From IMG/VR virus record IMGVR_UViG_3300028591_000139, positions 1 through 64,000 of that record: a stretch of 64,000 bases of DNA; one strand, 5' to 3'. How positions within the stretch are numbered: position 1 is the stretch's first letter; each line of letters starts with the position of its first letter. The position numbers and the translations under genes were made by a program. The notes under the pieces were generated by a model. It did not search any database and had not been told where the DNA came from. It saw only the letters and a list, made by a program, of their open reading frames with translations. This DNA comes from a virus. Its lineage: Duplodnaviria > Caudoviricetes. Positions 1,002 through 57,521 of this stretch are shown one piece after another.

Positions 1002-1919
1002 TTATTTCTTTAAATATTCTAATATCTCTTCAGCATTATGTATTACGGTTTCATTTAAAAATTTATCGCATTTTAAATTGGTATAATATATTATATTGAT
1101 TCCATTTTCCTTGCAATAATTATACTTCATTTCATCTAACTCTTTTCTCCTTTCAAATTCTTTATTGCCTCCAAAATATTCAACAGGATTAAAATGTTGT
1201 CCTCCTTGACATTCTATAGCCACATTATAATCAGGCAAATAGAAATCCAACCTCATTCTTTTATTAAATGGTAAATTATATTGAGGAATATAATTTATTT
1301 TTTCTTTATTTAAAAAAATAGAAATTTCTTCTTCTAACTTACTACTAGCGCAGACAGGGCATCCACAACCAGTAAGATGTTTGTTCGGCGTTTGCCAAAA
1401 CGTACCATGAAGCATACACGTTATAGGAACTTTAGTTACATTATTTTTATATTCAAAAGTTTCATCATATACGTATCTATTGCCATGAACTTCAATAGCT
1501 TTTTTAATAAAATTTTCCCAACCTAATTTCCTTTTCTCACTTCTAATAATATCGGCGCATTTTGGGCACCCAGCCCCGCTTAAATGAGAACGAGGTTCCT
1601 GTTTAAATTCACCATGCTCCGGGCAAATAATACATACGTTTTTATTTTTACCGTTGTACTCCACTTTTGAATAATCATATCTATCACCATGAACTTGTTT
1701 TGCCATAGCTAAAAACTCATCAGTGGTATATTTATAACTTCTATGAGAACATTTTGGGCAACCACAACCATTAACGTGATGTCTTGGCTCTTGATAAAAA
1801 TCACCATGCAATTTACATGTAATTTTTATTTTTTGCTTCATATTAACATAATCATCGTGATAAATGTACTTGTAACCGTGCTTTTCATTACATCTTTTAA
1901 AAAACTCTTCTTTCGTCAT
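1002..1919 (-). CDS. Free-standing endonuclease: 3 zinc-ribbon (DUF723-like) repeats plus C-terminal PD-(D/E)xK/Vsr-like nuclease
   Basis: Repeats HGDxYDYSKV..CPEHGxFxQxP..H..G.GCPxC; C-terminal LDFYLPDYNVAIECQGGQHF. Confidence 0.8.
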   Translation of the reverse strand: MTKEEFFKRCNEKHGYKYIYHDDYVNMKQKIKITCKLHGDFYQEPRHHVNGCGCPKCSHRSYKYTTDEFLAMAKQVHGDRYDYSKVEYNGKNKNVCIICPEHGEFKQEPRSHLSGAGCPKCADIIRSEKRKLGWENFIKKAIEVHGNRYVYDETFEYKNNVTKVPITCMLHGTFWQTPNKHLTGCGCPVCASSKLEEEISIFLNKEKINYIPQYNLPFNKRMRLDFYLPDYNVAIECQGGQHFNPVEYFGGNKEFERRKELDEMKYNYCKENGINIIYYTNLKCDKFLNETVIHNAEEILEYLKK

Positions 1920-1927
1920 AAATTTTT

Positions 1928-3100
1928 CTACCTAACCATTATAGCACTGTAAGGCATCGCTTTCATTTTTAAAACATTCATAAGGCTTTCATTCATGTCA
2001 GCCTGATTTTTGGCCATATTCCATGGTAACATACGCTCCAATCGTTCTTTTAATTCATTTAAAACTTGCTCTTTTTCCTGCTTGCCCTGGTCCAATAAAA
2101 TCTGATAATCCAAAGTCATCTGAGCTTGCGGTATATTAACCACACCACTTGCATATCCTCGTATATTACCCAACAGAATTTTTGCTTCAGCTATTAATAG
2201 TCTTCTAACAATCTGTTGCGTTGGATAATTTAATAATTCATAGTGCATTTTGCTTAAAGGAATCTGGTCTGGTGTTAAAAGAACCGAGTCCTTATTATCA
2301 AGAGCGCACTGCTCAACAGAACTGTCTTCACCATTTCCGTTGCCTGATAAATCATAATAAGTGTACCAACAATAACACCCAATCATTTTGCCCCAACCAT
2401 ATGCGTCATCAGCAGATAAGCCACCCATGGCATTCCTTGACCCAGGTGTTGACATTAAATGCACAAGGTGCGTACCTTCTGGTCCGGCCGTTACTTTATA
2501 TGCCAAATCTCCCCTTAACAATGAGTTTTTATATTTAAGGTCTGCTGCCAATAAAGCAGTATCATACGCATTTCCGACATAAAAGCCTATTAAACCCATG
2601 CCATTTTGCATATTTCCATACTGTCCATAACCTCCTCCAATTCCAGTGTCAAGCATTCCAACATTTCCATACAGAGCTGCTTTCGTTGTTGAAGGCGTTA
2701 TGTACATTACTCTATTTATTTCCCTTCCAGCCGGAATTACATATACTTGTTTTCCCTTTTCTATTTTAAAAAAATCCTTTTTAAGCTCCCACTTTGTTCC
2801 ACGCTGCTGAAGCCCAACTTCCTTGCTAAACCACTCAGACCAATCCCTTGACCAATCTAAAGTTCTTATACTTAAAGCATATGCAACATCAGCGGGGTTT
2901 TCAAGAAACGAAGAACTTCCCATGGCGTTCATCCACTGCGTCTCTATTACCCAATTCTGCACATATGAAGCATAATCTCCAACGCATATTTCAAGAAGGT
3001 CGCATAACTGCTCATCTTCTAACTGCACCGGCCTAATCGGGCTGCCACATGTTACCCTGACTTTGCGGAATAGGTCTCTTAATTCGTCTGTTATTTGCAT
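1928..3100 (-). CDS. Neck/head-tail adaptor, T4 gp13-like
   Basis: N-terminal RKVRVTCGSPIRPVQLEDEQL and C-terminal ILLGNIRG..NIPQAQMTLDYQILLDQGKQEKE resemble gp13 termini. Confidence 0.7.
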   Translation of the reverse strand: MQITDELRDLFRKVRVTCGSPIRPVQLEDEQLCDLLEICVGDYASYVQNWVIETQWMNAMGSSSFLENPADVAYALSIRTLDWSRDWSEWFSKEVGLQQRGTKWELKKDFFKIEKGKQVYVIPAGREINRVMYITPSTTKAALYGNVGMLDTGIGGGYGQYGNMQNGMGLIGFYVGNAYDTALLAADLKYKNSLLRGDLAYKVTAGPEGTHLVHLMSTPGSRNAMGGLSADDAYGWGKMIGCYCWYTYYDLSGNGNGEDSSVEQCALDNKDSVLLTPDQIPLSKMHYELLNYPTQQIVRRLLIAEAKILLGNIRGYASGVVNIPQAQMTLDYQILLDQGKQEKEQVLNELKERLERMLPWNMAKNQADMNESLMNVLKMKAMPYSAIMVR

Positions 3101-4404
3101 AATTTTTTAATTTCAATTAAAAGTTCATCTTTATTTCTATAAATAGTATCAAGGTATTCTTTCGGGTAATTTTTTTCCAAAGAAAAATAAAATAATTTTA
3201 TTCCATTGTTAATGCATTTTTCTCTTTTTAACTTGTCCATTTTAACGGTATAAATATATTTTTCTTCTCCTCCAAAATATTTTACCGGTTTAAAATGCTG
3301 TATTCCTTGATATTCTATCGCTATATTTAATTCTTTAATAAAAATATCTAAAACTTGTCCATTTAAAAAATTATCTTTATATTGGTTTATTATAGTATAA
3401 TTTGGAAGACTTTCTTTTATGAATTTATATAGCAGCATTTCATTGACATGATTTTCTTCATGGCACATACTACATCCTTTGCCACTTAAATGCCCATGAG
3501 GGGCTTGCCAAAACTCTCCGTGTTCCGGACAAATTATGCAAACCTTAGTAGAATCATTTATATACTCAACCTTACTGTAGTCAAATCTATTACCATGTAC
3601 TTTAATAGCCTTTTCAATAAATTCCTCTTTAGTCATTTTATGGAACTTTGAGCATAATGGGCATCCTTGTTTTGCATTTATATGTTTGTAAGGCGTTTGC
3701 CAAAACTCGCCATGTTCAGGACATATAATACAAACTTTTTCACGACTACTTTTATAATCTACTTTTGAATAATCGTATCTATCTCCATGAACTTGTTTTG
3801 CTCGTTCTAAAAACTCTTCAATAGTGTATTTATAACTCCTATGCGAACATTTAGGACAGCCATTTTTTAAATGTATATGCCTGTCAAATGTTGTTTGAAA
3901 GATATTTCCACAGTTATTACACTTTAACGTTATTTTTTGACGAGAATTACATTTATCAACTAATGAATAGTCATATTTATCACCATGTATCTCTTTTGAT
4001 TTTTCAATATATTCAGCTAATGTTTTATTTTTACCAGCGCATTTAGGACATCCACATTTTTGAAGAATATGTAAAGACGGAGTTTGCCAAAATTCACCAT
4101 GTTCGGGACATATTATGCACACCCTTGTTTTATCACTAACGTATTTTACTTTTGAATAATCATATCTATCTCCATGTATTTGTTTTGCCCTTTCAATAAA
4201 TTTTCTACCCTTTTCTATTAACTTGCATTCCTGACAAGCACATTTGCCATATATATGATTTCCGGGGCTAACATAAAACTCTCCATGCTCAGGACAAATA
4301 ATGCACACCTTCGAATTTGAATTTTTATATTCTACTTTTGAATAATCATATTTGTCACCATATAACTGCTTGGCCTTTTCAATAAAAATTTCTTTATTCC
4401 ACAT
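3091..4404 (-). CDS. Free-standing endonuclease, 5 zinc-ribbon repeats plus nuclease domain
   Basis: CPEHGEFWQTP repeats; LDIFIKELNIAIEYQGIQHF; overlaps the neck gene start by 10 nt. Confidence 0.8.
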   Translation of the reverse strand: MWNKEIFIEKAKQLYGDKYDYSKVEYKNSNSKVCIICPEHGEFYVSPGNHIYGKCACQECKLIEKGRKFIERAKQIHGDRYDYSKVKYVSDKTRVCIICPEHGEFWQTPSLHILQKCGCPKCAGKNKTLAEYIEKSKEIHGDKYDYSLVDKCNSRQKITLKCNNCGNIFQTTFDRHIHLKNGCPKCSHRSYKYTIEEFLERAKQVHGDRYDYSKVDYKSSREKVCIICPEHGEFWQTPYKHINAKQGCPLCSKFHKMTKEEFIEKAIKVHGNRFDYSKVEYINDSTKVCIICPEHGEFWQAPHGHLSGKGCSMCHEENHVNEMLLYKFIKESLPNYTIINQYKDNFLNGQVLDIFIKELNIAIEYQGIQHFKPVKYFGGEEKYIYTVKMDKLKREKCINNGIKLFYFSLEKNYPKEYLDTIYRNKDELLIEIKKLCK

Positions 4405-4514
4405 AAACCTTTTTTATTATTACCGTTATAAATATATTTAGAATAATCTATGTCATTCTTATTATTCTCCATGACTTTTTTTAAAAACTCTTCTTGCGTA
4501 AATTTCTTCGACAT
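4332..4514 (-). pseudogene. Truncated N-terminal remnant of a repeat-array endonuclease
   Basis: MSKKFTQEEFLKKV...DYSKYIYNGNNKKGLC is half a repeat, then runs out of frame into the 4404 ATG. Confidence 0.6.
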
Positions 4515-4527
4515 ATTAATACAAATT

Positions 4528-4558
4528 AAAAAGTGCCGGCAGCTTTAAGCCGCCGGCA
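4528..4558 (-). terminator. Terminator after the recombinase gene
   Basis: TGCCGGC/GCCGGCA stem with adjacent A-run. Confidence 0.7.
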
Positions 4559-4565
4559 AAATTAT

Positions 4566-5771
4566 TTACTGGTCAAAAGTCTCCTCCTCAGAGAATTCAA
4601 CATCAGCTTCGGTAATGTCAGTTACAGCACTCTCGCCATCCCTGTTTCTCAACGTCTCAAGCTGACCCAAAATATGCTTTATGTTTTCCTTTTTATACCT
4701 TTCGACATCTTCTTCAGATATAATTCCATTATGAACACAAGCTAAAGTTCCCTCATACGTTACATTATATGGCACGGGTAATTGGTTCTTTGTAACTTTA
4801 ATTTTTGTAATGATTCCATAATTAAAATTCTCACCCTTTGCGGTTGCTTTCAGCGTCTTTGTCGCAGCCTTTGCAACACCACCCATGTGCAATATTAAAC
4901 GTGCTCCATAAAACATGGTTTTTCCCCCTTTTAATTCTATTGACGGAACTCCACCCATAGAATTCATGGAATCATTCCAAATCTTATTCACGCAAAAGAA
5001 TGTATTTGTATATGGTTCACTTATTTTTCTGGAAGATGGGATTCTGTTGTTAATGATATTATTGAATGATTGTGCTATTGCGCCTGCATCAAACATATTA
5101 TTGCCCGACTTGCTTGTGTATGATTTAAATGACTGTATCGAACCTATGCTATCCCAAATAAAGCAAATTGGTTGTTTTATTTTGCCCTCTTCTTGCATGT
5201 CAAGTATTTCATTAATTGAGTAGGCTATATCTTCCAGTACGGCTTGTTTTCTTTTCTTTGATATACGTTTTCCTGCTGCGTAATCAATATCTCCGAATTT
5301 ATCTGCAAGAACTGTAGAGTCATAATAAATTACATCTTTTGCTTTATGCGTAATAATTCCTTGTTTAATTTCTCCAGTTTCTTCGTCAAGAATTTCTCCG
5401 TATATTGGTTCTGCCTCCACTCCACAATCGATGGCGTATTTCCAATCGAAATTGCCTTCTGTTTCATACACGACGGCTAAAATTCCTTCTCTTTGGCAAG
5501 CTGCTATGAGGCAGTTTTTAATGGTTGACTTACCCGTATTTGACCACCCAGTGGCGATGGTTAAGTATCCCTTTGGTATTCCTGGAAGCTTGAGTGCATT
5601 TTCGAAGGCTTGTGGCAGTACTATGAATTCTGTTTCTTTTTCTGCGTTTGAGGCTTTAAGTTCGCTCATTTTTATTGGTTCTTTTGGGGTTTCGATTGTA
5701 AGCCCAAGTAGTTCTCTAATGTCGTCAGTGCTTGGTCTTGTAAATGTTTTTTTCTTAATTGCTTGTTTCAT
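4566..5771 (-). CDS. uvsX: RecA/UvsX-family recombinase
   Basis: Walker A GWSNTGKST, YETEG, Walker B FIWDSIG, KGGKTMFY motif. Confidence 0.85.
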   Translation of the reverse strand: MKQAIKKKTFTRPSTDDIRELLGLTIETPKEPIKMSELKASNAEKETEFIVLPQAFENALKLPGIPKGYLTIATGWSNTGKSTIKNCLIAACQREGILAVVYETEGNFDWKYAIDCGVEAEPIYGEILDEETGEIKQGIITHKAKDVIYYDSTVLADKFGDIDYAAGKRISKKRKQAVLEDIAYSINEILDMQEEGKIKQPICFIWDSIGSIQSFKSYTSKSGNNMFDAGAIAQSFNNIINNRIPSSRKISEPYTNTFFCVNKIWNDSMNSMGGVPSIELKGGKTMFYGARLILHMGGVAKAATKTLKATAKGENFNYGIITKIKVTKNQLPVPYNVTYEGTLACVHNGIISEEDVERYKKENIKHILGQLETLRNRDGESAVTDITEADVEFSEEETFDQ

Positions 5772-7131
5772 AACTTTTTATAAATTTACGTAAATTATTA
5801 ATGTCATTAAAAATTATTTTATTGTTATAGAAATTCATTTTTTCAGCTTTATCAATATGATTTGTATAATATATTAAATTAACATTATTTTTTTCGCATA
5901 TATTATATTTTATAACATCGCTTTCCTTTGCTTTATCTGACTTCATGAATTTCATGTCTTCAAAATGTTGTATTCCTTGGCATTCTATTGCAATTTTAAG
6001 TGATGGAATATAGAAATCTATACTTTTCATATCTAGAAAGTTTAAATCTTTTTTTGTTGCTTGATATATAAAATCTATTCCTTCATTTTTTAGCATTAGT
6101 TCAACGTCTCTTTCCAAGTGGCTTTGGTTGCATTTTGGGCATCCTTGTCCTATCCAATGTTTTAATGGTTTTTGCCAAAATGTTCCGTGTTCCGGACAAA
6201 TTATTTCGACTTCTTTATTATTTCCTTTATAGGTTACTTTACTATAATCATATTTATCTCCGTGTATATTAAGGGAGCGTTTTTTGAATTCGTCTAGTGT
6301 TAATAATTGTCTTTCTGTTTGGTGTTCCATTTTGCATTTTGGACAGCCTTGTTTCATTTCAACGTGTTTATATGGCATTTGCATGAAACTTCCATGTTTT
6401 TTACATATGATTTCTGTTTTTGTTGTATAATTTTTATAAGAATCTTCATTATAATCATATAAATCTCCATGGGCTTTTTTAGCTCTTTTTATAAACTCGT
6501 TAAATGGTATGCTTCTTTTTTTCCTTCTTTCTACATCTGCGCATTGAATGCATCCGTGTCCATTAACGTGTAAATATGGAAGTTGTTTATAATCTCCATG
6601 AATAGGGCATGTTATTAATGTTTCGCTATTATAATTTGTATATTCATTTTCGTGATAGTTATATTTATCTCCATGTTTTTTTCTTGCTCTTTGAACGAAT
6701 ATTTCGAATGGTATATGATGCATTTTGGAACATTTTGGGCATCCTTGTCCGTTTATATGTTTTTTAGGCAATTTAAAAAATGAGCCATGTTCATTTCCAA
6801 ATTCATCTTTTTCGTGGCAAATTATTTCAATTTTTGTTTCGGAGTTTAAATATTTGCTTTTTGAATAGTCATATTTATTACCATGTTTTTCTTTTGCCTT
6901 ATTAATCCATTCTTCTGTTGTATATTTTCTTGTTCCATTGCAAGTTGGGCATCCTTGTTTTTCGCATATATGGTTTGCCGGACTCATTTTAAATAATGTT
7001 CCGCATTTTTTGCAAAGAATTTCGCCTTTTGTTTTATTATTTACATATACAAATTTTGAATAATCATATTTATCTCCGTGTATATCTTTTGATTCATTTA
7101 TAAATTTATCAATTGTTTTATTTTTACACAT
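5755..7131 (-). CDS. Free-standing endonuclease, 5 zinc-ribbon repeats plus nuclease domain
   Basis: GCPxC repeats; IDFYIPSLKIAIECQGIQHF; overlaps both neighbours. Confidence 0.8.
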   Translation of the reverse strand: MCKNKTIDKFINESKDIHGDKYDYSKFVYVNNKTKGEILCKKCGTLFKMSPANHICEKQGCPTCNGTRKYTTEEWINKAKEKHGNKYDYSKSKYLNSETKIEIICHEKDEFGNEHGSFFKLPKKHINGQGCPKCSKMHHIPFEIFVQRARKKHGDKYNYHENEYTNYNSETLITCPIHGDYKQLPYLHVNGHGCIQCADVERRKKRSIPFNEFIKRAKKAHGDLYDYNEDSYKNYTTKTEIICKKHGSFMQMPYKHVEMKQGCPKCKMEHQTERQLLTLDEFKKRSLNIHGDKYDYSKVTYKGNNKEVEIICPEHGTFWQKPLKHWIGQGCPKCNQSHLERDVELMLKNEGIDFIYQATKKDLNFLDMKSIDFYIPSLKIAIECQGIQHFEDMKFMKSDKAKESDVIKYNICEKNNVNLIYYTNHIDKAEKMNFYNNKIIFNDINNLRKFIKSYETSN

Positions 7132-31293: not shown

Positions 31294-31853
31294 TATTTTA
31301 GAATGTTTCTGTGCCTCTTGTTCTTATTATTTAATTTTTTTTGAACTTCATTTTCAATGTATAATCTTTCTTTTAATGCTTTCATAACTCCGGAAGGATT
31401 ATTCCTAATATCATACTCCCATATTCTCATTATGGGTATACCATGAAGCAAAGCCCATTCATTTTTATGTCCATCAACCATTTTATTCTTCTTATGCATT
31501 GGCAATAGTTTATTTTCATCAATTACCCTAGGGTCAGCATGATAAAAAGAACCATCAATTTCAATTAGCATTGAAATTCTATTTGACAGCGCTTCTTGTT
31601 TCACTGATTTTAAACCATTTTTTTCTTCAAACAACAAATTTTTCTCGCTATTAGATACTATTGCAAAATCATAATATCTGCCTATTTGACTTGCAAAATA
31701 TTGATAAACATAATTAATTCCTAAAGGCTCTAGAAACTCATGAGCAAATTTTTTTTCTAACTTAGATGTACCATATTTATTTTTGTTTTTTATTAGAATT
31801 TTATTACTGCTCTTTTTTTCTATTTTTTTATGTTTTTTTATTGGTTGCTTCAT
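31293..31853 (-). CDS. Vsr/DUF559-like (EDxHD) endonuclease
   Basis: TSKLEKKF, YDF, LIEIDGSFYH, IMRIWEYDI. Confidence 0.75.
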   Translation of the reverse strand: MKQPIKKHKKIEKKSSNKILIKNKNKYGTSKLEKKFAHEFLEPLGINYVYQYFASQIGRYYDFAIVSNSEKNLLFEEKNGLKSVKQEALSNRISMLIEIDGSFYHADPRVIDENKLLPMHKKNKMVDGHKNEWALLHGIPIMRIWEYDIRNNPSGVMKALKERLYIENEVQKKLNNKNKRHRNILK

Positions 31854-32973
31854 CTATATAATTTGCAATTTCATTTAAATTAAATTTATTTCTATCCCTC
31901 ACATAAAATACTTTCACACCATGCTTTTCGCATAGTTTTAATTTTCTTTTATCTCTTTTTTGCTGTTGAATAAATACCTCTTCACCGCCAAAAAAATCAG
32001 TTGGTTTATAGTGTTGTTCTCCTTGAACTTCTATAGCAGCGTTGTAATCCGGTAAATAAAAATCTAAAAATAAATTGCTTCTGTATTTCAACCAATCAAA
32101 AGTTTTTTGCCTATCAATTTTTACATTTAGTTTTTTAAGTTTTTCAAAAACAATTTCTTCAAACATTGATTTATTTTCTCTTCCGCATTGTGCACACCCT
32201 AACCCATTAATATGGTTGTTTGGGGTTTGCCAAAATTCACCATGTTTTGGACATATTATACATACCTTTGTTTGACTATTAATATAATTTACTTTTGAAT
32301 AATCATATTTATCGCCATGAACTTGTTTTGCCTTTTCTATGAACTTCTCTAATGTACGCCTATTTGCTTTTGACATTCTTTCTATACCGCATTTCCAACA
32401 GCCGCTACCATTTAAGTGTGTATCCGGCATTTGCCAAAATTCGCCATGTTCTGGGCAAATTATGCAAACCTTAGTTTTTGAATTTTTATATTCAACTTTT
32501 GAGTAATCATACTTATCGCCATGAATTTCTTTTGCCCTTTCTATAAATTTACATGTAGTAATTCTTCCTCTTTTATCCCAAAGTGTTTCTCTAGCGCATT
32601 TTTGACAGCCATTACCACATAAGTGTTTATTAGGAGTTTGCCAAAATTCGCCATGTTCTGGGCAAATTATACACACTTTTGTGCTATTTTTAATATATTC
32701 TACTTTAGAATAATCATATTTATCTCCATGTATTTTTTTGGCTTTTTCAATAAATGTATTAGTATTACTAAATTTTGAAAAATTTGTCTTTTCGTGTCCA
32801 CATTTACAACACCCGAAGCCCTTTAAATGGCTATAAGGTATTTGCCAAAATTCGCCATGTTTTGGACAAATTATACATACCTTTGTATATGCATTTGCAT
32901 ATTCAACTTTTGAGTAATCATATTTATTGCCATGAATTTCTTTTGCCTTTTTTATGAAATCGTCTAATGTCAT
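31828..32973 (-). CDS. Free-standing endonuclease, 4 zinc-ribbon repeats plus nuclease domain
   Basis: CP(K/E)HGEFWQ x4; LDFYLPDYNAAIEVQGEQHY. Confidence 0.8.
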   Translation of the reverse strand: MTLDDFIKKAKEIHGNKYDYSKVEYANAYTKVCIICPKHGEFWQIPYSHLKGFGCCKCGHEKTNFSKFSNTNTFIEKAKKIHGDKYDYSKVEYIKNSTKVCIICPEHGEFWQTPNKHLCGNGCQKCARETLWDKRGRITTCKFIERAKEIHGDKYDYSKVEYKNSKTKVCIICPEHGEFWQMPDTHLNGSGCWKCGIERMSKANRRTLEKFIEKAKQVHGDKYDYSKVNYINSQTKVCIICPKHGEFWQTPNNHINGLGCAQCGRENKSMFEEIVFEKLKKLNVKIDRQKTFDWLKYRSNLFLDFYLPDYNAAIEVQGEQHYKPTDFFGGEEVFIQQQKRDKRKLKLCEKHGVKVFYVRDRNKFNLNEIANYIDEATNKKT

Positions 32974-49296: not shown

Positions 49297-49298
49297 CA

Positions 49299-50258
49299 AT
49301 GCCAAAGAAATTAACAACGGAAGAATTTATAAAAAGAGCAAAACTGCTTCATAATAATAAATATGACTATTCAAAATCTGAATATAATACAGCAAAAGAA
49401 AAAATTTGCATAATATGTCCGGAGCACGGTGAATTCTGGCAAACTCCAACCGACCATTTAAGTGGAAGGGGATGTTATAAGTGTGGAATAGAAAGGACAA
49501 AAGAATCACAAAAATTCACTACAGAACAGTTTATAGAAAAAGCTAAACAAACCCATGGTGACAAATATAATTATTCAAAAGTTAATTATGTTAACTCACA
49601 AACACCAGTAATTATTACATGTCCAAAACATGGAGATTTTATTATGCGTCCAAACGACCACATTCAAGGCCAAGGTTGCCCAAAGTGCAAGTTAATATTT
49701 CTAAGGAATAAATTCTCTCTCACAACTGAACAATTTATTAAAAAAGCAAGAGAAATACATGGTAATAAATATGTTTATTCTAAAGTAAAATACGTGAATA
49801 ATAGGACAAAAGTTTGTATTATATGCCCAAAACATGGTGAATTTTGGCAAACTCCGGACAAACATTTGCAAGGGTGTAATTGTCCCAAATGCAATAAAAG
49901 CAGATTAGAAGAAAAAGTTAGCCTTATTTTATCAAAAAATAACATTGACTTTGAAGAGCAAAAGCATTTTGAATGGCTTGGTAGACAAAGTTTAGATTTT
50001 TTTCTTCCAAAGTTTAGTATAGGAATTGAATGTCAAGGAGTAGAACACTTTAAACCTGTGGAAAGATTTAAAGGAAGCGGAGGCTTTGAAAATACCAATG
50101 AAAGGGATGTATTAAAATATAGGCTTTGCGGTAACAATAAAGTCAAATTACTTTATTATACAAATCTTAAAGAATATAACACATTTCTCAATGAATCTTT
50201 AATTAAAAATGAAGATGATTTAATCAAAGTAATCACAGAAAATAATAAAAATATATAG
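49299..50258 (+). CDS. Free-standing endonuclease, 3 zinc-ribbon repeats plus nuclease domain
   Basis: CP(E/K)HG x3; LDFFLPKFSIGIECQGVEHF. Confidence 0.8.
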   Translation: MPKKLTTEEFIKRAKLLHNNKYDYSKSEYNTAKEKICIICPEHGEFWQTPTDHLSGRGCYKCGIERTKESQKFTTEQFIEKAKQTHGDKYNYSKVNYVNSQTPVIITCPKHGDFIMRPNDHIQGQGCPKCKLIFLRNKFSLTTEQFIKKAREIHGNKYVYSKVKYVNNRTKVCIICPKHGEFWQTPDKHLQGCNCPKCNKSRLEEKVSLILSKNNIDFEEQKHFEWLGRQSLDFFLPKFSIGIECQGVEHFKPVERFKGSGGFENTNERDVLKYRLCGNNKVKLLYYTNLKEYNTFLNESLIKNEDDLIKVITENNKNI

Positions 50259-51683: not shown

Positions 51684-54143
51684 ATGGCAAAAGAAATTAC
51701 AACAGAAATGGTAAACACATTCCTTAGTGGGCACGACCCAATGGAACATATTGTTTCAATTGAATGTGATTATATGGATAGTATGGCAAATATTATCTAT
51801 AATAATGAAAACGGAGAAAAAAGAGTTAAAAGAGAGCCATTTAAACCATTTATATGGGTCAAAAATAGCGCGTGCATAAGAATGTTTGGTGGCAATAGAA
51901 GCTTGTTAATCAGAAAATTAAGGGAATATAATATAAACGTCAAAAAATTAACAGACAAAAGAGAAGACGGCACTAAAATAGAAAGACTTGAAAACGGATA
52001 TAAATATCTGTTCTACGCCACTAAAAATATGCCATATTCAAGATTCCTAAACTTCTTTACAGAAGCAGGAACACCAATATATGATAAAAATGCGGCAACA
52101 GAAAGAGGAGGCGGCTCAAAAGAATTTATGGCAATTACACCAATTGAACAATTTATGATTCAAACTGGAAAAAGACTGTTCAAAGGATATGAAAACTATG
52201 ACGATTTAAAGAGATTCTTGTTCGACCTTGAAACACAAGGGCTTAACCCAAGAATACACGCCATAGACCAAATTGGTATGAGAACCAATAAAGGTTTTGA
52301 GAAAATTATTACAATAACAGGCGAAGGGGAAGAGAGAAATAAAAATGAATTAGAGGCAATTGACGAATTCCTAAAAACAATATATGAAGAAAAACCCGAT
52401 ATTATAGCAGGACATAACTCAGAAAACTTCGATTGGGACTTCATAATCATCAGATGCGAAGTGTTGGGCACAACACTACAAGAAATGTCATCAAAATACT
52501 TCAAACACCCAATATATAAAAAGAAAAAAAACGCAGTGCTAAAACTCGGAGGAGAAATGGAATATTATAAACCAACTATGGCTTGGGGCTTTAGCGTGTT
52601 AGACTCACTACATGCAGTCAGAAGAGCACAAGCACTTGACTCCAATATGAAATCTGCGTCACTTAAATATACGACAAAATATCTCAACCTTAAAAAACCA
52701 AATCGAGTATATGTTCCAGGAGGAATAATTACAAAAGTATGGAACGTCACAGAAAAAAAATATGCCTTTAGAAATACAGACGGAGATTGGTATGAAATAA
52801 AAGACGATAGAAAACTACTAGACGGCTATGAATTAACAAGTGGAAGATACATAGTAGAAAGATACTTGTTGGACGACCTTTGGGAAACTGATAAAGTAGA
52901 ACTTACACTAAATGAGTCTAACTTCCTCGTGGCAAAATTACTCCCAACGTCATTTACAAGAGCGTGCACAATGGGAACAGCAGGAATTTGGAAATTAATT
53001 ATGCTTGCTTGGAGCTATGAAAATAATCTTGCAGTACCGGCAACAAGCGAAAACGCTCGCTTTACAGGAGGCCTATCACGATTATTAAAAGTGGGATATG
53101 TCGATAGAATCGTAAAATTAGACTACAACTCACTTTATCCATCAATAGACTTAACGTGGTGGGTTAGCACGGGATTAGACATAGATAATATTATGCTCCA
53201 TCTTCTCGAACATATATTAACAAACCGAGAAAAATATAAAAAAATAAAAGAAGAATACGGAGAAAAAGCAAATAAACTAAAAGATAAATTAAATTCAACC
53301 GATTTAACAGAAGAAGAAAAAACAAATATAAAAAACGAAATTGCACGCTGTAAATCAATCAAATCAGCGAATGATAAGAAACAACTACCTTTAAAGATTT
53401 TGGCCAATAGCTTTTTCGGGTCATACGGGTGTCCACAAGTGTTTCCGTTTGGCGATTTGGAAGCTGCTGAGAAAACAACTTGTATTGGAAGACAGAGTTT
53501 ACGTTTAATGATTTCTCATTTTTCGACATTAAGCGAAAAGTTTGGCATTAATAATTCTGACTATAATTACACTCCTGTTGTGGGCGACTCGTTCACAGGT
53601 GATACACCATTATTTATAAAGTACGATGAAAACGGGTTAATTGATATAAAGCCAGTTGAGGAGTTAATTGGCGAAACGGAAGTTGATGCGTTGGGCCGTG
53701 AATATGATACGTCCCAGAAGCCATTTAAAGTGCTCTGTAGAAGCGGTTGGATGCATCCTGAGTATATTTACCGTCACAAGACAGAAAAGCCGTTGTACGA
53801 ACTTTCTGATGGCAATATGAACGTTGTGGTAACAGAGGACCACAGTTTGTTTAATAACAGACAGGAAAAAATCAAGCCAAGCGAAATAAATGCCGAAACA
53901 AAATTGGAATATTACAATGAAAAGCTTGACCACAGTTATACTGACCCAAGTATTAAGCAAATAATAACGATAGCCAAGATGGTGAAGAACGGCACGTTTG
54001 ATAGAATACCGATTAGCATTCTTAACTTAGACAAAAAACAAAGAATACAGGTGTTTTTAGATGTTCTTGGAGATGTGGACTACTCAAAAATTAGCAAAAC
54101 TTGTGCAGCTGGAATATTATTTTTAAAAAAGCAAATTATTTAA
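51684..54143 (+). CDS. polB: Family B DNA polymerase N-terminal part (aa 1-635) fused to the split intein N-half
   Basis: ExoI FDLET, ExoII GHNSENFDW, ExoIII YLLDD, motif A LDYNSLYPS, motif B KILANSFFG; ends VVGD, then intein. Confidence 0.95.
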   Translation: MAKEITTEMVNTFLSGHDPMEHIVSIECDYMDSMANIIYNNENGEKRVKREPFKPFIWVKNSACIRMFGGNRSLLIRKLREYNINVKKLTDKREDGTKIERLENGYKYLFYATKNMPYSRFLNFFTEAGTPIYDKNAATERGGGSKEFMAITPIEQFMIQTGKRLFKGYENYDDLKRFLFDLETQGLNPRIHAIDQIGMRTNKGFEKIITITGEGEERNKNELEAIDEFLKTIYEEKPDIIAGHNSENFDWDFIIIRCEVLGTTLQEMSSKYFKHPIYKKKKNAVLKLGGEMEYYKPTMAWGFSVLDSLHAVRRAQALDSNMKSASLKYTTKYLNLKKPNRVYVPGGIITKVWNVTEKKYAFRNTDGDWYEIKDDRKLLDGYELTSGRYIVERYLLDDLWETDKVELTLNESNFLVAKLLPTSFTRACTMGTAGIWKLIMLAWSYENNLAVPATSENARFTGGLSRLLKVGYVDRIVKLDYNSLYPSIDLTWWVSTGLDIDNIMLHLLEHILTNREKYKKIKEEYGEKANKLKDKLNSTDLTEEEKTNIKNEIARCKSIKSANDKKQLPLKILANSFFGSYGCPQVFPFGDLEAAEKTTCIGRQSLRLMISHFSTLSEKFGINNSDYNYTPVVGDSFTGDTPLFIKYDENGLIDIKPVEELIGETEVDALGREYDTSQKPFKVLCRSGWMHPEYIYRHKTEKPLYELSDGNMNVVVTEDHSLFNNRQEKIKPSEINAETKLEYYNEKLDHSYTDPSIKQIITIAKMVKNGTFDRIPISILNLDKKQRIQVFLDVLGDVDYSKISKTCAAGILFLKKQII
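53589..54140 (+). other. Split intein N-fragment (IntN, 184 aa)
   Basis: Block A SFTGDTPLFIK..IKPVEEL immediately after VGD; block B VVTEDHSLF (TxxH). Confidence 0.9.
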
Positions 54144-54190
54144 GTAATTTTTATTGGAGTATCAGATATTTATTCTAAAGGCGGTATAAT

Positions 54191-55906
54191 ATGGGAAGAT
54201 TTAATGAAGAAAAATTTATAAAAGAATTTAATGAAATTCATAATAATGAATATGAATATTTAAGTTATGAAAATGGGCTGGTGAAATTTTTATGTAAAAA
54301 GCATAATGAAATAAATTATGACACGCCATCGCATTTAAGGGACCCAAAAAGGGGGTGTAAGATTTGCGGAAAAGAAAGACAATCACTTTTTAATAAAAAT
54401 TCAAATAAATTAGCGAAAGAAACTTTTATTGAAAAAGCCAAAAAAATACATGGCGATAAATATGATTATTCTAAAACAGTATATGTAAAAAATAGTATTA
54501 AGGTTATTGTAACATGCCCAACTCATGGGGATTTTACAATAACCCCTAATTCCCATTTAAATGGAGAGGGGTGTTATCGGTGCGGATTAGAGCATTCGCA
54601 TGAAAAATTTAGAAAAACAAAAGAGCAATTCATTGAAGAAGCAAAAAAAATTCATGGGGATAAGTACGATTATTCAAAGGTAGAATATGTTAATACAAAT
54701 CAAAAAGTATGCATAATATGCCCAGAGCATGGAGAATTTTGGCAAGTTCCTTTTAAGCATCTAATGGGTCAAGGATGTCGAAAATGCGGCATAAAAAAAC
54801 GTTCGGCGCAACAAATGCTCACAACAGAACAATTTATTGAAAAGGCGAGACAAGTTCACGGGGACAAATATGACTATTCCAAAGTTGTTTATAATGGATA
54901 TGACAATGAAGTCATTATAACGTGCCCTAAGCATGGAGATTTTAAACAAATACCAGATTCTCATATTCATGGAAGTGGCTGTCAAAAATGCTCTAGTAGC
55001 ATTTCTAAATATGAAAGCGAAATATATGAATTTATATGTAATTTAATTGGTAAAGATAATGTAATACAAAGAGAAAGAAATATACTAAAAAATAAAGCAG
55101 AACTTGACATTTTTATACCATCAAAAAATATAGCAATAGAATATAATGGCTGTAGATGGCACTCTGAACAATTTAATAAAGATAAGAACTACCATTTAAG
55201 TAAAACTCTTCAATGTAGAGAAAATGGTATAAAGCTAATACAAATATTTGAAGATGAATATATAGACAAAAAAGAAATAGTCTTATCTAAATTAAAACAT
55301 TTATTGAATATAGATGACGGCGAAAAAATACAAGCTAGAAAATGTTTAATTTATGAAATTTCTTACTATGAAGCAAAAAAATTTTTAGAAAAAAATCATA
55401 TACAAGGTAAATGTAAATCAACTATATATTTGGGGGCATATTACGAAAAAAACATAGTAGGAGTAATGGCGCTCACAAAACTAAATGATGATAACGAGTG
55501 GGAATTAAATAGATTTGCCACCAAAATAAATACTATTAGCCAAGGCATAGGTAGTAAAATGTTCTCATTCTTTATTGAAAAATATAAACCAGAAACTGTA
55601 AAATCTTTTGCCGATAGAAGATGGACTATTAATGAAAATGAAAATCTATATACAAAATTAGGTTTCAGGTTAAAAAGCATTTTACAGCCAGATTACAAAT
55701 ATATTATAGATGGCACATATAATAGAGTGCATAAATTTAATTTTAGAAAATCTATTTTATCAAAAAAATATAATTTACCAATGTCTTTAACAGAAAGAGA
55801 AATGTGTGAGAAAATAAAAGCATATAAAATATGGGACTGCGGCTTGCTAAAATATATTTGGAAAAAATCTAAAATCAAAATAATTGATAAAGAAATTATA
55901 ATTTAG
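54191..55906 (+). CDS. Free-standing endonuclease (4 zinc-ribbon repeats plus nuclease) with C-terminal GNAT/Mom-like domain (Hef-like architecture)
   Basis: Repeats; LDIFIPSKNIAIEYNGCRWH; then NHIQG, WELNRFA, GIGSKMF, KSFADRRW, LYTKLGF, IWDCG. Confidence 0.75.
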   Translation: MGRFNEEKFIKEFNEIHNNEYEYLSYENGLVKFLCKKHNEINYDTPSHLRDPKRGCKICGKERQSLFNKNSNKLAKETFIEKAKKIHGDKYDYSKTVYVKNSIKVIVTCPTHGDFTITPNSHLNGEGCYRCGLEHSHEKFRKTKEQFIEEAKKIHGDKYDYSKVEYVNTNQKVCIICPEHGEFWQVPFKHLMGQGCRKCGIKKRSAQQMLTTEQFIEKARQVHGDKYDYSKVVYNGYDNEVIITCPKHGDFKQIPDSHIHGSGCQKCSSSISKYESEIYEFICNLIGKDNVIQRERNILKNKAELDIFIPSKNIAIEYNGCRWHSEQFNKDKNYHLSKTLQCRENGIKLIQIFEDEYIDKKEIVLSKLKHLLNIDDGEKIQARKCLIYEISYYEAKKFLEKNHIQGKCKSTIYLGAYYEKNIVGVMALTKLNDDNEWELNRFATKINTISQGIGSKMFSFFIEKYKPETVKSFADRRWTINENENLYTKLGFRLKSILQPDYKYIIDGTYNRVHKFNFRKSILSKKYNLPMSLTEREMCEKIKAYKIWDCGLLKYIWKKSKIKIIDKEIII

Positions 55907-55971
55907 GTATAGAATACCCATATCAAGTTTTTGAGAATAAAGAAGAACTTTTAAAAGAAATACTAAAATGA
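55891..55971 (+). pseudogene. Fossil C-terminus of a previous endonuclease gene
   Basis: Reads RNYNLGIEYPYQVFENKEELLKEILK*; its TGA overlaps the ATG at 55968 (ATGA); resembles the C-termini of the window's other endonucleases. Confidence 0.55.
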
Positions 55972-56069
55972 TTGAAACAAAAAACATAGGAAACACAAGT
56001 GATTACGTGTATGATATATCTTTGGACGGCACAGTTATTAACGCTTTGGGAATGAATGTAATGTCAAAT
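55968..56069 (+). other. Split intein C-fragment (IntC, 34 aa)
   Basis: Block F DYVYDISLD, block G ...VMSN, followed by Thr(+1) of TDG. Confidence 0.9.
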
Positions 56070-57521
56070 ACCGATGGTTTCAACTTCCAAATGCCAAAAA
56101 AATTCAGGTATACTGATGAAAATCCATATGTTGGAAAGGGCCTTGGAAGAAATGTTGAAAAGGGAAAGACGTATACAAAAGTGGAAGCAGACGTTGCAGA
56201 ATTTGAAGACTTATATTTTAATTCGCCGTATAACGGAGGCATTAATAAAATGGGTTTGGGAATAGATGAGTATTGTGACGCTTGTATACAGTTCGCAAGA
56301 AAAAATTACGCGGACCTTATGCCGGATGGTTCTACAAAAAAAGTTGGAAATACCATTAAATCAAGAAAGATGTCGGGTTATTTGGAGAAGTTTATTGATG
56401 ATGGAATAAATTTATTGCTTCACGGTAATGGTTCAAAATTTTTGGAAAATTATTATGATTATATTTCAAGGATTTACAATTATCAAATTCCGATAAAGGA
56501 TATTGCTTCAAAGGGTAAGATTAAGAAGACTATTGATGAGTACAAGACTGACTGTAACACTTTAACGAAGGCAGGTAATAAGAAGTCTCGTCAGGCGTGG
56601 TATGAGTTGGTTATCAGGGAGAATTTAAATGTAAATGTGAGTGACACCATTTATTACATAAATACGGGAACGAAGAAGGGTCATTCTGACGTTAAGAAAG
56701 TTACGCATCAATTTATAAAGGATGAGAATGGCGATATTATTGAGTTGACCAACAAATTAAAGACCGAGTTATTTAAGAAAGAGTTGGAGAATTATGGCGT
56801 TGAGAATGTTAAGGGGTTATCTTCTGATAATAAGAAGGAGATAATAAAGAAATATGTTATTCGTGAGGAGGATGAGATTATTCTTAATTGTCAAATTGTC
56901 CCTGCTGAAATAATGGAAGATGAGAAGGATATTTTATGCAGCGATATTGATGGTTTGGAATATAATTCCGAAAAATATATTGAGCAGTTTAATAACAGGA
57001 TAAAGCCATTATTGGTTTGTTTTTCTCCAAATATAAGAAATGAGATATTAATTTCAAATCCGGAGAATAGAAAATATTTTACCGAAGAGGAGGCAAAATT
57101 GGTTGCTGGTTATCCCAACAAAGAGTCTGACCAAGACACTTATGAAGCTTTAATGACTCCCGAGAAGAAGGAGATTGCTTATTGGTTAAAGATTAATGAA
57201 ACACCGCCATTTATTAAGGAGTGCAACATAGATTGGGATAATTTGGTTAAAGATTACATTAAGGAAAAGGAGGAAAATGATAATGAATTATTTAAGGTTG
57301 AAAATGAAAAATATTTGGAGGCTTTAAATAATTTAACTGATAAAGATGTTGAAGCGTTTGAAGAAGATGGTGTTTTACCTCAAACAATATTAGATGTTGT
57401 AACATTAGATAGTGATATGCATTTTTATTTCAATAAAATACCTTCCGTAGTTCCATCAACTGGCGGCTTTGTATTTGATGACATATCTTATGACTATATT
57501 GATAAAAATGGAGATGAATAA
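55968..57521 (+). CDS. polB: Split intein C-half fused to family B DNA polymerase C-terminal part
   Basis: After the intein: TDG (rest of motif C), ARKNYA, KKVGNTIKS, IYYIN, KYIEQF palm/thumb motifs. Confidence 0.92.
   Translation: MIETKNIGNTSDYVYDISLDGTVINALGMNVMSNTDGFNFQMPKKFRYTDENPYVGKGLGRNVEKGKTYTKVEADVAEFEDLYFNSPYNGGINKMGLGIDEYCDACIQFARKNYADLMPDGSTKKVGNTIKSRKMSGYLEKFIDDGINLLLHGNGSKFLENYYDYISRIYNYQIPIKDIASKGKIKKTIDEYKTDCNTLTKAGNKKSRQAWYELVIRENLNVNVSDTIYYINTGTKKGHSDVKKVTHQFIKDENGDIIELTNKLKTELFKKELENYGVENVKGLSSDNKKEIIKKYVIREEDEIILNCQIVPAEIMEDEKDILCSDIDGLEYNSEKYIEQFNNRIKPLLVCFSPNIRNEILISNPENRKYFTEEEAKLVAGYPNKESDQDTYEALMTPEKKEIAYWLKINETPPFIKECNIDWDNLVKDYIKEKEENDNELFKVENEKYLEALNNLTDKDVEAFEEDGVLPQTILDVVTLDSDMHFYFNKIPSVVPSTGGFVFDDISYDYIDKNGDE

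What the first reader, a model, noticed from the sequence alone, without database searches (positions are those of the whole stretch)
54191..55906. Endonuclease between the polymerase halves is fused to a Mom/GNAT-like domain
Seen: unlike the five other full-length repeat-array nucleases in the window, this one has about 190 extra C-terminal residues (WELNRFA..GIGSKMF..KSFADRRW..LYTKLGF). Known: ELxR, S(Y/F)AD and xYxxxGF motifs typify GNAT-fold proteins, including the Mu Mom DNA-modification family; similar architectures are annotated Hef-like. Inference: it is a homing nuclease that drives spread of the split-intein allele by cutting intact polB, possibly with a coupled DNA-modifying or self-protection activity.
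Basis: partly seen in the sequence, partly recalled or inferred. Interest (0 to 1): 0.7.

Follow-up and report, generated by a model that had tools for sequence, protein, structure and literature searches.

The report
Homing endonuclease with Mom-like domain
A selfish DNA-cutting gene sits inside a phage DNA polymerase gene split by a protein intron; its extra tail is related to the DNA-modifying enzyme Mom of phage Mu, a known fusion whose purpose is untested.

Summary
Observation confirmed. ORF 54191-55906 (571 aa) lies between the two halves of a family B DNA polymerase gene. The gene is split in motif C (GD|TDG) by a split intein. The protein has four zinc-ribbon repeats, a Vsr-like/EDxHD nuclease (profile match to I-Bth0305I, E 6e-7), and about 185 C-terminal residues absent from the five paralogues in the window.

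The C-terminal part folds as a GNAT domain (pLDDT 95.7). Foldseek's best PDB match is Mu Mom (8bv8), and profile comparison with the Mom family gives 91% probability. The equivalents of Mom H58, R111, D149, R151 and Y159 are 97-100% conserved in 263 relatives. It falls below Pfam's Mom threshold and keeps a CoA-type GxG/A loop that Mom lacks, so I call it a Mom-related sister family.

Homing is well supported by comparison. Related phages have empty, intein-only, occupied, deleted and multiply invaded alleles at exactly this site.

The fusion is not new. It occurs in 419 phage records ('Hef-like', 'nuclease/acetyltransferase') and was noted by Iyer et al. 2021. It sits in the split polB of cultured Pseudomonas phage MIJ3. 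This scan has found it repeatedly on other DNA.

What the Mom-like domain does remains untested. Verdict: new member of a known kind, moderate interest.

The parts
51684..53588 (+). polB N-extein (635 aa), ending ..VVGD in motif C
   Evidence: Pfam PF03104 and PF00136. It aligns end to end with contiguous polB genes of relatives. Junction read.
53589..54143 (+). Split-intein N fragment (184 aa plus stop). It starts with Ser and has block B TEDH. Its last ~85 aa are a decayed LAGLIDADG endonuclease remnant.
   Evidence: Alignment with the contiguous LAGLIDADG inteins of L031 and L020 at the same site.
54191..55000 (+). Endonuclease gene, aa 1-270: four tandem ~68-aa zinc-ribbon repeats (DUF723/DUF4379), the presumed DNA-reading array
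   Evidence: Pfam PF05265 and PF14311. Internal repeat hits in tblastn. Repeats read from the translation.
55001..55315 (+). Endonuclease gene, aa 271-375: Vsr-like / EDxHD (PD-(D/E)xK fold) nuclease domain
   Evidence: Family profile against PDB hits 3r3p (I-Bth0305I catalytic domain) at E 6.3e-7. Weak Pfam MTES_1575 and DUF559 hits. PHROG 559 and 3339.
55316..55906 (+). Endonuclease gene, aa 376-571: Mom-related GNAT domain (aa ~380-560) plus an 11-aa tail unique to this copy, and the stop codon
   Evidence: AF2 pLDDT 95.7. Foldseek top hit 8bv8 Mom. VIA-align Z 12.7. hhalign 91%. Conservation table.
55968..56069 (+). Split-intein C fragment (34 aa), blocks F and G, ending ..MSN before Thr+1
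   Evidence: Aligns with the C termini of the contiguous inteins of L031 and L020. Sequence read.
56070..57521 (+). polB C-extein (483 aa), starting TDGFNF
   Evidence: Contiguous with the N-extein in 18 of the 34 related loci, e.g. L003-L005, L008-L010 and L012.
49299..50258 (+). Paralogue without the GNAT domain (319 aa), just after a helicase-like ORF
31828..32973 (-). Paralogue without the GNAT domain (381 aa)
5755..7131 (-). Paralogue without the GNAT domain (458 aa), next to a UvsX-like recombinase gene
3091..4404 (-). Paralogue without the GNAT domain (437 aa), on the other side of the recombinase gene
1002..1919 (-). Paralogue without the GNAT domain (305 aa)

Best explanation
The gene encodes a free-standing homing endonuclease of the Hef-type / EDxHD (Vsr-like) family. 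It occupies the endonuclease slot of an intein at motif C of a jumbo-phage family B DNA polymerase gene, and its own start and stop codons break the intein into two fragments.

Inferred mechanism:
1. In a mixed infection, the four zinc-ribbon modules read a long site spanning the uninterrupted GD|TDG junction of an intein-less polB.
2. The nuclease domain cuts there.
3. Recombinational repair copies the whole cassette (intein N fragment, endonuclease gene, intein C fragment) into the cut genome.
4. The polymerase is then restored by protein trans-splicing, using Ser1, the terminal Asn and Thr+1.

The C-terminal ~185 residues are a GNAT-fold domain. Among characterised proteins it is closest to Mu Mom, the enzyme that transfers glycine from Gly-tRNA to adenine N6 in double-stranded DNA. 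Equivalents of Mom's H58, R111, D149, R151 and Y159 are nearly invariant across the family, so I take the domain to be a working enzyme or a working nucleotide-binding pocket.

My best guess for its role (about 40%) is that it acylates a base in DNA held by the same zinc-ribbon array and so blocks cutting. That would be a built-in immunity against cleavage or nicking of the carrier genome at leftover half-sites or near-cognate sites. The acyl donor may be an acyl-CoA rather than a charged tRNA, because the CoA-type GxG/A loop is retained.

Shown here: the architecture, the folds, the residue conservation, and the series of empty and occupied alleles. Inferred: cleavage, the target site, trans-splicing, and every activity of the GNAT domain.
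For: Architecture and nuclease identity; family profile against 3r3p at E 6.3e-7. Taylor et al. 2011 (PMC3239194) place Hef-type phage endonucleases in the EDxHD family.

Intein: the Ser-start block A and the TEDH block B are present, with blocks F and G ending in Asn before Thr. The fragments align with contiguous LAGLIDADG inteins at the same codon boundary in L031 and L020.

Mobility:
- Of 34 related polB loci, 18 are empty at this site: 16 are fully contiguous, and L032 and L034 have only a separate gap further upstream. Four of the rest (L007, L011, L035, L015) carry the same split intein with an endonuclease that has the Mom-like domain.
- L010 (empty) and L035 (occupied) are 94% identical in DNA over about 16 kb. 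Their 36+36 nt flanks are identical, and they differ by a clean 2,143-nt insertion at GD|TD.
- L006 equals L007 (96.7% identical) apart from a 1,063-nt deletion of the endonuclease gene.
- The cassette most like the window's is in L015, whose polB is only 52-61% identical, while the closest polB genes (78-82% identical: L003 and L004) are empty.

GNAT and Mom relationship:
- AF2 model with pLDDT 95.7 and pTM 0.90.
- Foldseek's top PDB hit is 8bv8 Mom at E 2e-8, against 4e-6 for the next GNAT.
- VIA-align gives Mom Z 12.7, rmsd 3.5, 148 residues aligned, the longest alignment in the list.
- hhalign against a Mom-family alignment gives 89-91% probability and E 1e-6 to 2e-6 over 112-119 columns.
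- PF25680 is hit below threshold by 21 of 42 relatives.
- In 263 relatives: R441 263/263, D475 262, R477 257, Y487 258, H403 260. These align with Mom R111, D149, R151, Y159 and H58, which Silva et al. 2026 found essential or important (PMC13219725).

The Mom-like domain is as conserved as the nuclease among intein-lodged orthologues: 56-66% against 55-67%, with 30-64% for the repeats.
Against: No activity was measured.

Against a close Mom relationship:
- The Pfam Mom score is 16.3 bits against a cut-off of 27.1.
- The family profile does not retrieve 8bv8 from PDB sequences at E<=1, yet it does retrieve two ordinary GNATs.
- VIA-align Z scores of Mom and some 50 other GNATs are tied at 12.3-13.8.
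- Mom's essential S124 is Ser here but Gly in 167 of 263 relatives.
- Mom's dimer residue W48 is not conserved.

Against an essential role: five paralogues in the same window, and most relatives elsewhere, lack the domain, so the nuclease does not need it in general.

Against self-protection: in an intein-lodged copy the full target is destroyed by the insertion, so the simplest self-protection argument is weak here.

Other points: the cultured counterpart in phage MIJ3 has Asn at the D475 position. The intein C fragment has Ser instead of the usual penultimate His, so splicing competence is not certain.
Confidence: 0.8

Rival explanations
1. Single-chain 'cut and protect' competition weapon, the reading of Iyer et al. 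2021. The Mom-like domain modifies adenines across the phage's own genome, and the nuclease attacks unmodified host or rival-phage DNA. Spread of the gene is then a side effect, not the function.
For: Iyer et al. 2021 (PMC7824862) describe Mom domains fused to restriction-endonuclease-fold domains in jumbo phages and propose exactly this. The catalytic-type residues are nearly invariant. The window comes from a probable jumbo phage: relatives are 270-400 kb, and CheckV puts completeness at 29% for 99.5 kb.
Against: The position inside an intein at a catalytic motif is the footprint of a site-specific homing element, not of a genome-wide restriction system. So are the precise empty/occupied allele pair and the deleted and decayed copies. 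Only one of six paralogous nucleases in the window has the domain. A four-module reader implies a long, rare site.
Confidence: 0.2
2. The GNAT domain no longer transfers anything to DNA. It serves as a structural module: an extra DNA-binding or base-flipping clamp, or an oligomerisation surface, that helps the nuclease engage its site.
For: Mom's S124 equivalent is Gly in 63% of relatives. MIJ3's copy has Asn for D475. The model packs the nuclease and GNAT domains into one confident unit, pTM 0.90. The helical insert carries conserved basic residues R512, K515, R519, K520, K525 and K526, as does the DNA-binding insert of Mom (PMC13219725).
Against: A purely structural role does not explain near-invariance of the R441, D475, R477, Y487 and H403 set together with the GxG/A cofactor loop (G452 263/263).
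Confidence: 0.3
3. The GNAT domain is an ordinary acetyltransferase acting on a protein or small molecule. It might auto-acetylate to regulate the nuclease, or acetylate a host repair or defence factor. It would have no action on DNA.
For: The protein passes Pfam's generic GNAT threshold: PF00583 at 22.8-24.1 bits against a cut-off of 20.7. It keeps the canonical CoA-binding GxG/A loop. Ordinary acetyltransferases tie with Mom by Z score.
Against: The domain is found almost always fused to DNA-binding and nuclease modules. The Mom-specific D-x-R and ELxR residues are conserved. Foldseek and hhalign both favour Mom.
Confidence: 0.1
4. The gene is an inactive relic that merely persists between the intein halves.
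For: Relatives show that decay happens: deletion in L006, loss in L014, and a degenerate domain in L013. G+C content of the nuclease and GNAT parts is 22-26% against 33-36% for polB.
Against: The 571-aa frame is intact. All conserved nuclease and GNAT positions are present. The L011/L035 orthologue pair has dN/dS about 0.12, though this rests on only 11 differences.
Confidence: 0.07

Closest known systems
Hef-type / EDxHD (Vsr-like) homing endonucleases: I-Bth0305I (PDB 3r3p; Taylor et al. 2011), Hef of phage U5 (Sandegren et al. 2005, not readable here), and 'Hef-like' genes of Campylobacter, Acinetobacter, Dickeya and other phages
   Same: The nuclease domain is homologous (profile E 6.3e-7 to 3r3p). 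It is a free-standing gene lodged in or beside conserved phage genes. Records with the same nuclease-plus-GNAT module are annotated Hef-like, Hef53 or homing endonuclease.
   Different: I-Bth0305I uses NUMOD/HTH DNA-binding repeats and has no GNAT domain. This protein uses four zinc-ribbon repeats and carries the Mom-related tail. I did not compare it with the U5 Hef sequence itself.
Fractured genes: split intein with a free-standing endonuclease gene between the halves (Dassa et al. 2009, PMC2677866)
   Same: The layout is the same: host N part plus intein N fragment, then a Vsr-like endonuclease ORF, then intein C fragment plus host C part. It is also found in phage DNA-replication genes.
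   Different: Family B polymerase is not among the eight host enzymes listed there. No GNAT or Mom domain is mentioned. Here the intein N fragment still carries a decayed LAGLIDADG remnant, so the invaded intein already had, and then lost, its own endonuclease.
Pseudomonas jumbo phage vB_PaeM_MIJ3 orf154, inside its split polB (Imam et al. 2019, PMC6892783)
   Same: The polB gene is split in motif C by a split intein. Between the halves sits a 560-aa zinc-ribbon, nuclease and Mom-like protein, matching the domain profile at E 5e-43. The phage is cultured, so the arrangement can be tested.
   Different: The paper calls it an HNH endonuclease and does not mention the GNAT part. The insertion point is DTD|S, two codons downstream of GD|TDG here. 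The D475 equivalent is Asn. The GNAT domains are only about 34% identical.
Mom of phage Mu (PDB 8bv8; Pfam PF25680; Silva et al. 2026, PMC13219725)
   Same: GNAT fold with a helical insert before the last strands. Equivalents of H58, R111, D149, R151 and Y159 are conserved. It is the top Foldseek hit, and hhalign gives 91%.
   Different: Mom is a stand-alone 241-aa dimer and uses Gly-tRNA(Gly). It lacks the GxG/A loop that this family keeps. Mom's S124 and W48 are not conserved here. The protein falls below the Pfam Mom threshold.
Mom-REase fusions of jumbo phages (Iyer, Anantharaman, Krishnan, Burroughs and Aravind 2021, PMC7824862)
   Same: The same kind of fusion, a Mom-family GNAT joined to a restriction-endonuclease-fold nuclease, was noted computationally in jumbo phages. 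Yersinia phage phiR1-37 g151 is among the hits here.
   Different: That paper reads the fusion as a restriction-modification-like weapon. This locus is in a homing position inside an intein, with empty and occupied alleles among relatives.

Membership tests
EDxHD / Hef-type (Vsr-like) homing endonucleases | Nuclease domain homologous to the Vsr-like catalytic domain of I-Bth0305I | tested here: met
   A profile of 42 relatives hits 3r3p at E 6.3e-7 over chain residues 11-94 of 105. The single sequence gives E 0.09.
EDxHD / Hef-type (Vsr-like) homing endonucleases | Catalytic residues equivalent to I-Bth0305I D196, N208, H213 and D222 | tested here: inconclusive
   In the HMMER alignment the Asp of ELDIF, the Asn of EYNG and the His of WHS align with D196, N208 and H213. 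The D222 equivalent could not be placed with confidence.
EDxHD / Hef-type (Vsr-like) homing endonucleases | Presence/absence polymorphism at a precise site in a conserved host gene | tested here: met
   Empty, occupied, deleted and multiply invaded alleles occur at the same GD|TD codon boundary. L010 and L035 are 94% identical apart from a clean 2,143-nt insertion.
EDxHD / Hef-type (Vsr-like) homing endonucleases | Site-specific cleavage of the endonuclease-less allele | not testable with these tools
   This needs a cleavage assay on the intein-less junction.
Fractured gene / naturally split intein | N fragment with splicing blocks A and B fused to the N-extein; C fragment with blocks F and G ending in Asn before a Ser/Thr/Cys | tested here: met
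   The fragment has the Ser-start block A and the TEDH block B. The C fragment ends ..SN before Thr. Both align to the contiguous inteins of L031 and L020. The penultimate residue is Ser, not the usual His.
Fractured gene / naturally split intein | Protein trans-splicing restores the host protein | not testable with these tools
   This needs co-expression of the two polB halves.
GNAT superfamily (Pfam PF00583 / PF13508) | GNAT fold and Pfam score above the gathering threshold | tested here: met
   PF00583 scores 22.8-24.1 bits against 20.7. PF13508 scores 26.9 bits (whole protein) or 28.2 bits (aa 270-571) against 27. About 50 GNAT structures align at Z 12.3-13.8.
GNAT superfamily (Pfam PF00583 / PF13508) | Cofactor-binding loop with the signature G-x-G/A after strand 4 | tested here: met
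   G452 is present in 263/263 relatives. Position 454 is Gly in 176 and Ala in 71 of 263.
Mom family (Pfam PF25680) | Pfam score above the gathering threshold (27.1 bits) | tested here: not met
   The score is 16.3 bits, E 0.0077. In all, 21 of 42 relatives hit the family at E<=1, with a best E of 8e-5.
Mom family (Pfam PF25680) | Residues essential in Mu Mom: R111, D149, R151 (and the important H58 and Y159) | tested here: met
   They align with R441, D475, R477, H403 and Y487. Each is conserved in 257-263 of 263 relatives. Residue roles are from PMC13219725.
Mom family (Pfam PF25680) | Essential Ser124 | tested here: inconclusive
   The aligned position is Ser455 in this protein. In relatives it is Gly in 167, Ser in 81 and Asn in 10 of 263.
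Mom family (Pfam PF25680) | Helical (HTH-like) insert between the last strands, needed for activity in Mom | tested here: inconclusive
   The model has three helices (aa ~515-541) between strands at 502-506 and 544-548. Mom gives the longest structural alignment, 148 residues over chain 36-227. I could not check residue-level equivalence of the inserts.
Mom family (Pfam PF25680) | Gly-tRNA(Gly)-dependent modification of adenine N6 in dsDNA | not testable with these tools
   This needs biochemistry and nucleoside mass spectrometry.

The most novel reading that the evidence does not exclude
The Mom-related domain is an active transferase that chemically marks a base in the DNA held by the same zinc-ribbon array. 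Because the CoA-type loop is kept, the donor is possibly an acyl-CoA rather than a charged tRNA. Hef-type elements with this tail would then be single-chain 'cut or protect' homing enzymes. That would be the first homing endonucleases shown to modify DNA, and a second chemistry for Mom-like enzymes. This locus and its relatives supply defined natural substrates: an empty and an occupied polB allele that differ only by the cassette.
Probability: 0.3. Interest if true: 0.75.

Novelty: new member of a known kind. Interest (0 to 1): 0.35.

Why it matters
The nuclease-plus-Mom-like fusion is one of the most abundant uncharacterised architectures among phage mobile genes. There are 13,741 cluster representatives at E<=0.001 and 419 phage records. 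Nobody has tested what the Mom-like part does.

This locus adds a clean test bed rather than a new kind of system:
- The target can be predicted to the codon: polB motif C, GD|TDG.
- Natural empty, occupied, deleted and intein-only alleles exist among relatives.
- The same arrangement is present in the cultured phage MIJ3.

It also shows that this split intein arose from a LAGLIDADG-bearing intein. That intein's own endonuclease decayed, and a free-standing gene then moved into its slot. This is a concrete example for models of how split inteins originate.

Tried and rejected
- Homodimer prediction of aa 270-571 (two copies) gave no answer, so nothing is concluded about oligomeric state.
- A megablast of the gene against the phage collection found no match. 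There is no close cultured relative.
- NCBIfam gave only sub-threshold rimI and tandem-95 hits, which were not useful.
- The promoter/terminator scan of 53900-56100 found 15 promoter-like sites against 14.6 expected and no terminators. No regulatory element can be claimed upstream of the endonuclease gene.
- I looked for a co-conversion signal by sliding-window identity between L011 and L035. The endonuclease gene is 99-100% identical against 95-98% for its immediate flanks. Other 100% segments occur elsewhere in these mosaic genomes, so I do not use it as evidence. The dN/dS by domain for that pair rests on only 11 differences.
- A literature search for Mom, GNAT, 'homing endonuclease' and 'fused' together found no paper. 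Sandegren et al. 2005 and Iyer et al. 2009 could not be read.
- I considered whether the motif VHKFN, shared with the Mu Mom C-terminal part, marks a homologous element. In my model it lies in a helix, and I could not place it in the Mom structure. It is left open.
- I considered a crAss-like origin of the window. I rejected it because polB relatives sit on contigs of 270-400 kb.
Full report
**What is there**

The window has an intact ORF at 54191-55906 on the plus strand, 571 aa with an ATG start. It lies 47 nt after the stop of an 819-aa ORF (51684-54143) that carries the exonuclease and polymerase domains of a family B DNA polymerase (Pfam PF03104 and PF00136). It ends 61 nt before a 517-aa ORF (55968-57521).

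[quoted passage not shown] The extra 184 aa and 34 aa are the two fragments of a split intein:
- The N fragment starts with Ser right after ..VVGD and contains the block-B motif TEDH.
- The C fragment ends ..MSN right before TDGFNF.

**The protein**

Residues 1-270 are four tandem ~68-aa zinc-ribbon repeats (Pfam DUF723 and DUF4379; internal repeat matches).

Residues 271-375 are a Vsr-like nuclease. A profile of 42 relatives hits the catalytic domain of the homing endonuclease I-Bth0305I (PDB 3r3p) at E 6.3e-7. Taylor et al. 2011 place phage Hef-type endonucleases in that same EDxHD family (PMC3239194). PHROG families 559 and 3339 ('HNH endonuclease', 'homing endonuclease') match almost end to end.

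Five full-length paralogues and one fragment occur in the window, and none extends beyond about residue 371. The 99.5-kb record holds only this one copy of the C-terminal domain.

**The extra domain**

An AlphaFold2 model of residues 270-571, built with 42 relatives, has mean pLDDT 95.7 and pTM 0.90.

Evidence that links it to Mom:
- Foldseek against the PDB ranks the crystal structure of phage Mu Mom (8bv8) first, at E 2e-8. The next GNAT is at 4e-6.
- By VIA-align, Mom (Z 12.7, rmsd 3.5) ties with about fifty ordinary GNATs (Z 12.3-13.8), but it gives the longest alignment, 148 residues.
- Profile-profile comparison with an alignment of Mom homologues gives 89% probability with 42 relatives and 91% with 263, at E about 1e-6 over 112-119 columns.
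- In that alignment, Mom's H58, R111, D149, R151 and Y159 fall on H403, R441, D475, R477 and Y487. Silva et al. 2026 found these essential or important, and placed some of them around the flipped adenine (PMC13219725). In 263 relatives they are present in 260, 263, 262, 257 and 258 sequences.

Evidence that separates it from Mom:
- The protein scores 16.3 bits on Pfam's Mom model against a cut-off of 27.1, while it passes the generic GNAT model PF00583.
- The family profile does not pull 8bv8 out of PDB sequences, but it does pull two ordinary GNATs.
- Mom's essential S124 is Ser here but Gly in 63% of relatives.
- The family keeps the classical G-x-G/A cofactor loop (G452 invariant), where Mom has N-S-E.

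I conclude that it is a GNAT domain of a distinct family. Its nearest characterised relative is Mom, and it shares Mom's substrate-side residues but not its donor-side loop.

**Homing**

A scan of viral contigs with the N-extein returned 34 related polB loci. Mapped against the parts of this locus, they form a series:
- Eighteen are empty at this site. Sixteen are fully contiguous, including the two closest polB genes, L003 and L004, at 77-82% identity. L032 and L034 have only a separate gap further upstream.
- L031 and the L018-L024 group carry a LAGLIDADG-type intein at exactly this boundary. It is seen whole and contiguous in L031, L020, L022 and L024.
- L007, L011, L035 and L015 carry the split intein with an endonuclease that has the Mom-like domain.
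- L006 is L007 (96.7% identical) with a clean 1,063-nt deletion that removes most of the endonuclease gene.
- L014 has lost the endonuclease gene altogether.
- L013 holds three endonuclease genes in tandem between the intein halves. The middle one has a truncated, degenerate version of the domain.

L010 (empty) and L035 (occupied) are 94% identical in DNA over about 16 kb. Their 36+36-nt flanks are identical, and they differ by a precise 2,143-nt insertion.

The cassette most similar to the window's (62-68% per part) is in L015, whose polB exteins are only 52-61% identical. This mismatch indicates horizontal transfer.

Precise presence/absence, decay and transfer are what the homing cycle predicts. 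Cleavage itself was not tested.

**Origin of the split intein**

Aligned with the contiguous inteins, the window's N fragment keeps both LAGLIDADG helices in degenerate form. About 87 residues between them are deleted, the catalytic acidic residues are lost, and the fragment stops just after the second helix region.

So the intein once had its own endonuclease. That endonuclease decayed, and the free-standing Hef-type gene now sits in its slot and breaks the intein.

**What the Mom-like domain may do**

Among the intein-lodged orthologues it is as conserved as the nuclease: 56-66% against 55-67%, with 30-64% for the repeat array. The key residues are all present in these orthologues. Its near-invariant pocket argues for a working active site.

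Against an essential role in cutting, five paralogues here and most relatives elsewhere lack the domain.

Against simple self-protection, the insertion destroys the full target in the carrier genome. However, both half-sites remain, and I-Bth0305I nicks sites that keep only one good half-site (PMC3239194). A protective mark could therefore still pay.

My estimates are:
- about 40%: an active DNA-directed acyl transfer that blocks cutting;
- about 30%: a mainly structural or DNA-binding role;
- the remainder: other substrates or no function.

The retained CoA-type loop suggests an acyl-CoA donor rather than the charged tRNA used by Mom. This is inference only.

**Comparison with what is known**

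- Layout. A split intein with a Vsr-like endonuclease gene between the halves was described by Dassa et al. 2009 for eight other enzymes. Family B polymerase and the GNAT domain are not mentioned there.
- Split polB inteins. These are known in phages (PMC12707363). In Pseudomonas jumbo phage MIJ3, Imam et al. 2019 reported a split polB with an 'HNH' endonuclease, orf154. I find that orf154 is a 560-aa zinc-ribbon, nuclease and Mom-like protein (E 5e-43 to the domain profile). It is inserted at DTD|S, two codons from the site used here, and has Asn at the D475 position.
- The module. The nuclease-plus-GNAT module occurs in 419 phage records, 343 of them nearly full length. Annotations include Hef-like, Hef53, homing endonuclease, and in two Acinetobacter phages 'nuclease/acetyltransferase'. 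In cultured phages it is usually a free-standing gene beside capsid, sheath or tail-fibre genes.
- Prior note of the fusion. Iyer et al. 2021 noted Mom domains fused to restriction-fold nucleases in jumbo phages and read them as restriction-modification-like.
- This scan. Earlier notes report the same fusion on several other genomes, with the same conclusion.

**Verdict**

This is a new member of a known kind. Its value lies in the defined target and the allele series, not in a new architecture.

Noticed in passing
window 53889-54140 (last ~85 aa of the intein N fragment): The split intein's N fragment keeps a decayed LAGLIDADG endonuclease: both motif helices are recognisable, about 87 residues between them are deleted, and the acidic residues are lost. 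It aligns with the intact LAGLIDADG inteins of L031 and L020 at the same polB site. The free-standing gene therefore invaded an intein that had already lost its own endonuclease.
   Followed up: yes
L013:10442-14716: Three endonuclease genes in tandem (466, 575 and 388 aa) lie between the two intein fragments of one polB. The middle one has a truncated, degenerate Mom-like domain that lacks the ELxR and D-x-R motifs.
   Followed up: partly
L006:10437-10730 versus L007:10504-11793: The two phages are 96.7% identical. One has lost 1,063 nt of the endonuclease gene by a clean deletion, leaving only the last ~68 codons of the Mom-like domain, while the split intein stays in place.
   Followed up: yes
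L041:2771-4453 (Pseudomonas phage MIJ3 orf154): The published 'HNH homing endonuclease' inside MIJ3's split polB is in fact a zinc-ribbon, Vsr-like nuclease and Mom-like protein. Its intein sits at DTD|S, two codons from the site used in the window, so two different insertion points exist within motif C.
   Followed up: partly
window 55968-56069: The intein C fragment ends ..MSN. The penultimate residue is Ser, not the usual His found in the contiguous intein of L031 (..CHN). The split relatives checked share this: L006 ends ..ISN.
   Followed up: no
window 47302-50258: The GNAT-less paralogue at 49299-50258 starts 3 nt after the stop of a helicase-like ORF. That ORF matches only the middle of a long helicase family (PHROG 62, positions 682-1138 of 1881). 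The helicase gene may also be fragmented by an endonuclease insertion.
   Followed up: no
window 3091-7131: Two GNAT-less paralogues flank a UvsX-like recombinase gene (4566-5771) on the minus strand.
   Followed up: no
window 9668-10867: A 399-aa ORF matches PHROG transposase families very strongly (phrog_506, E 1e-136). This is another mobile element in the phage genome.
   Followed up: no
L032:9119-9303 and L034:9131-9480: In two relatives the polB N-extein match is interrupted near residue 365-375 by 180-350 nt. This may be a second insertion site (intron or other element).
   Followed up: no
window 55001-55906: The nuclease and Mom-like parts have 22-26% G+C. The polB exteins have 33-35% and the whole window 32%.
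   Followed up: partly
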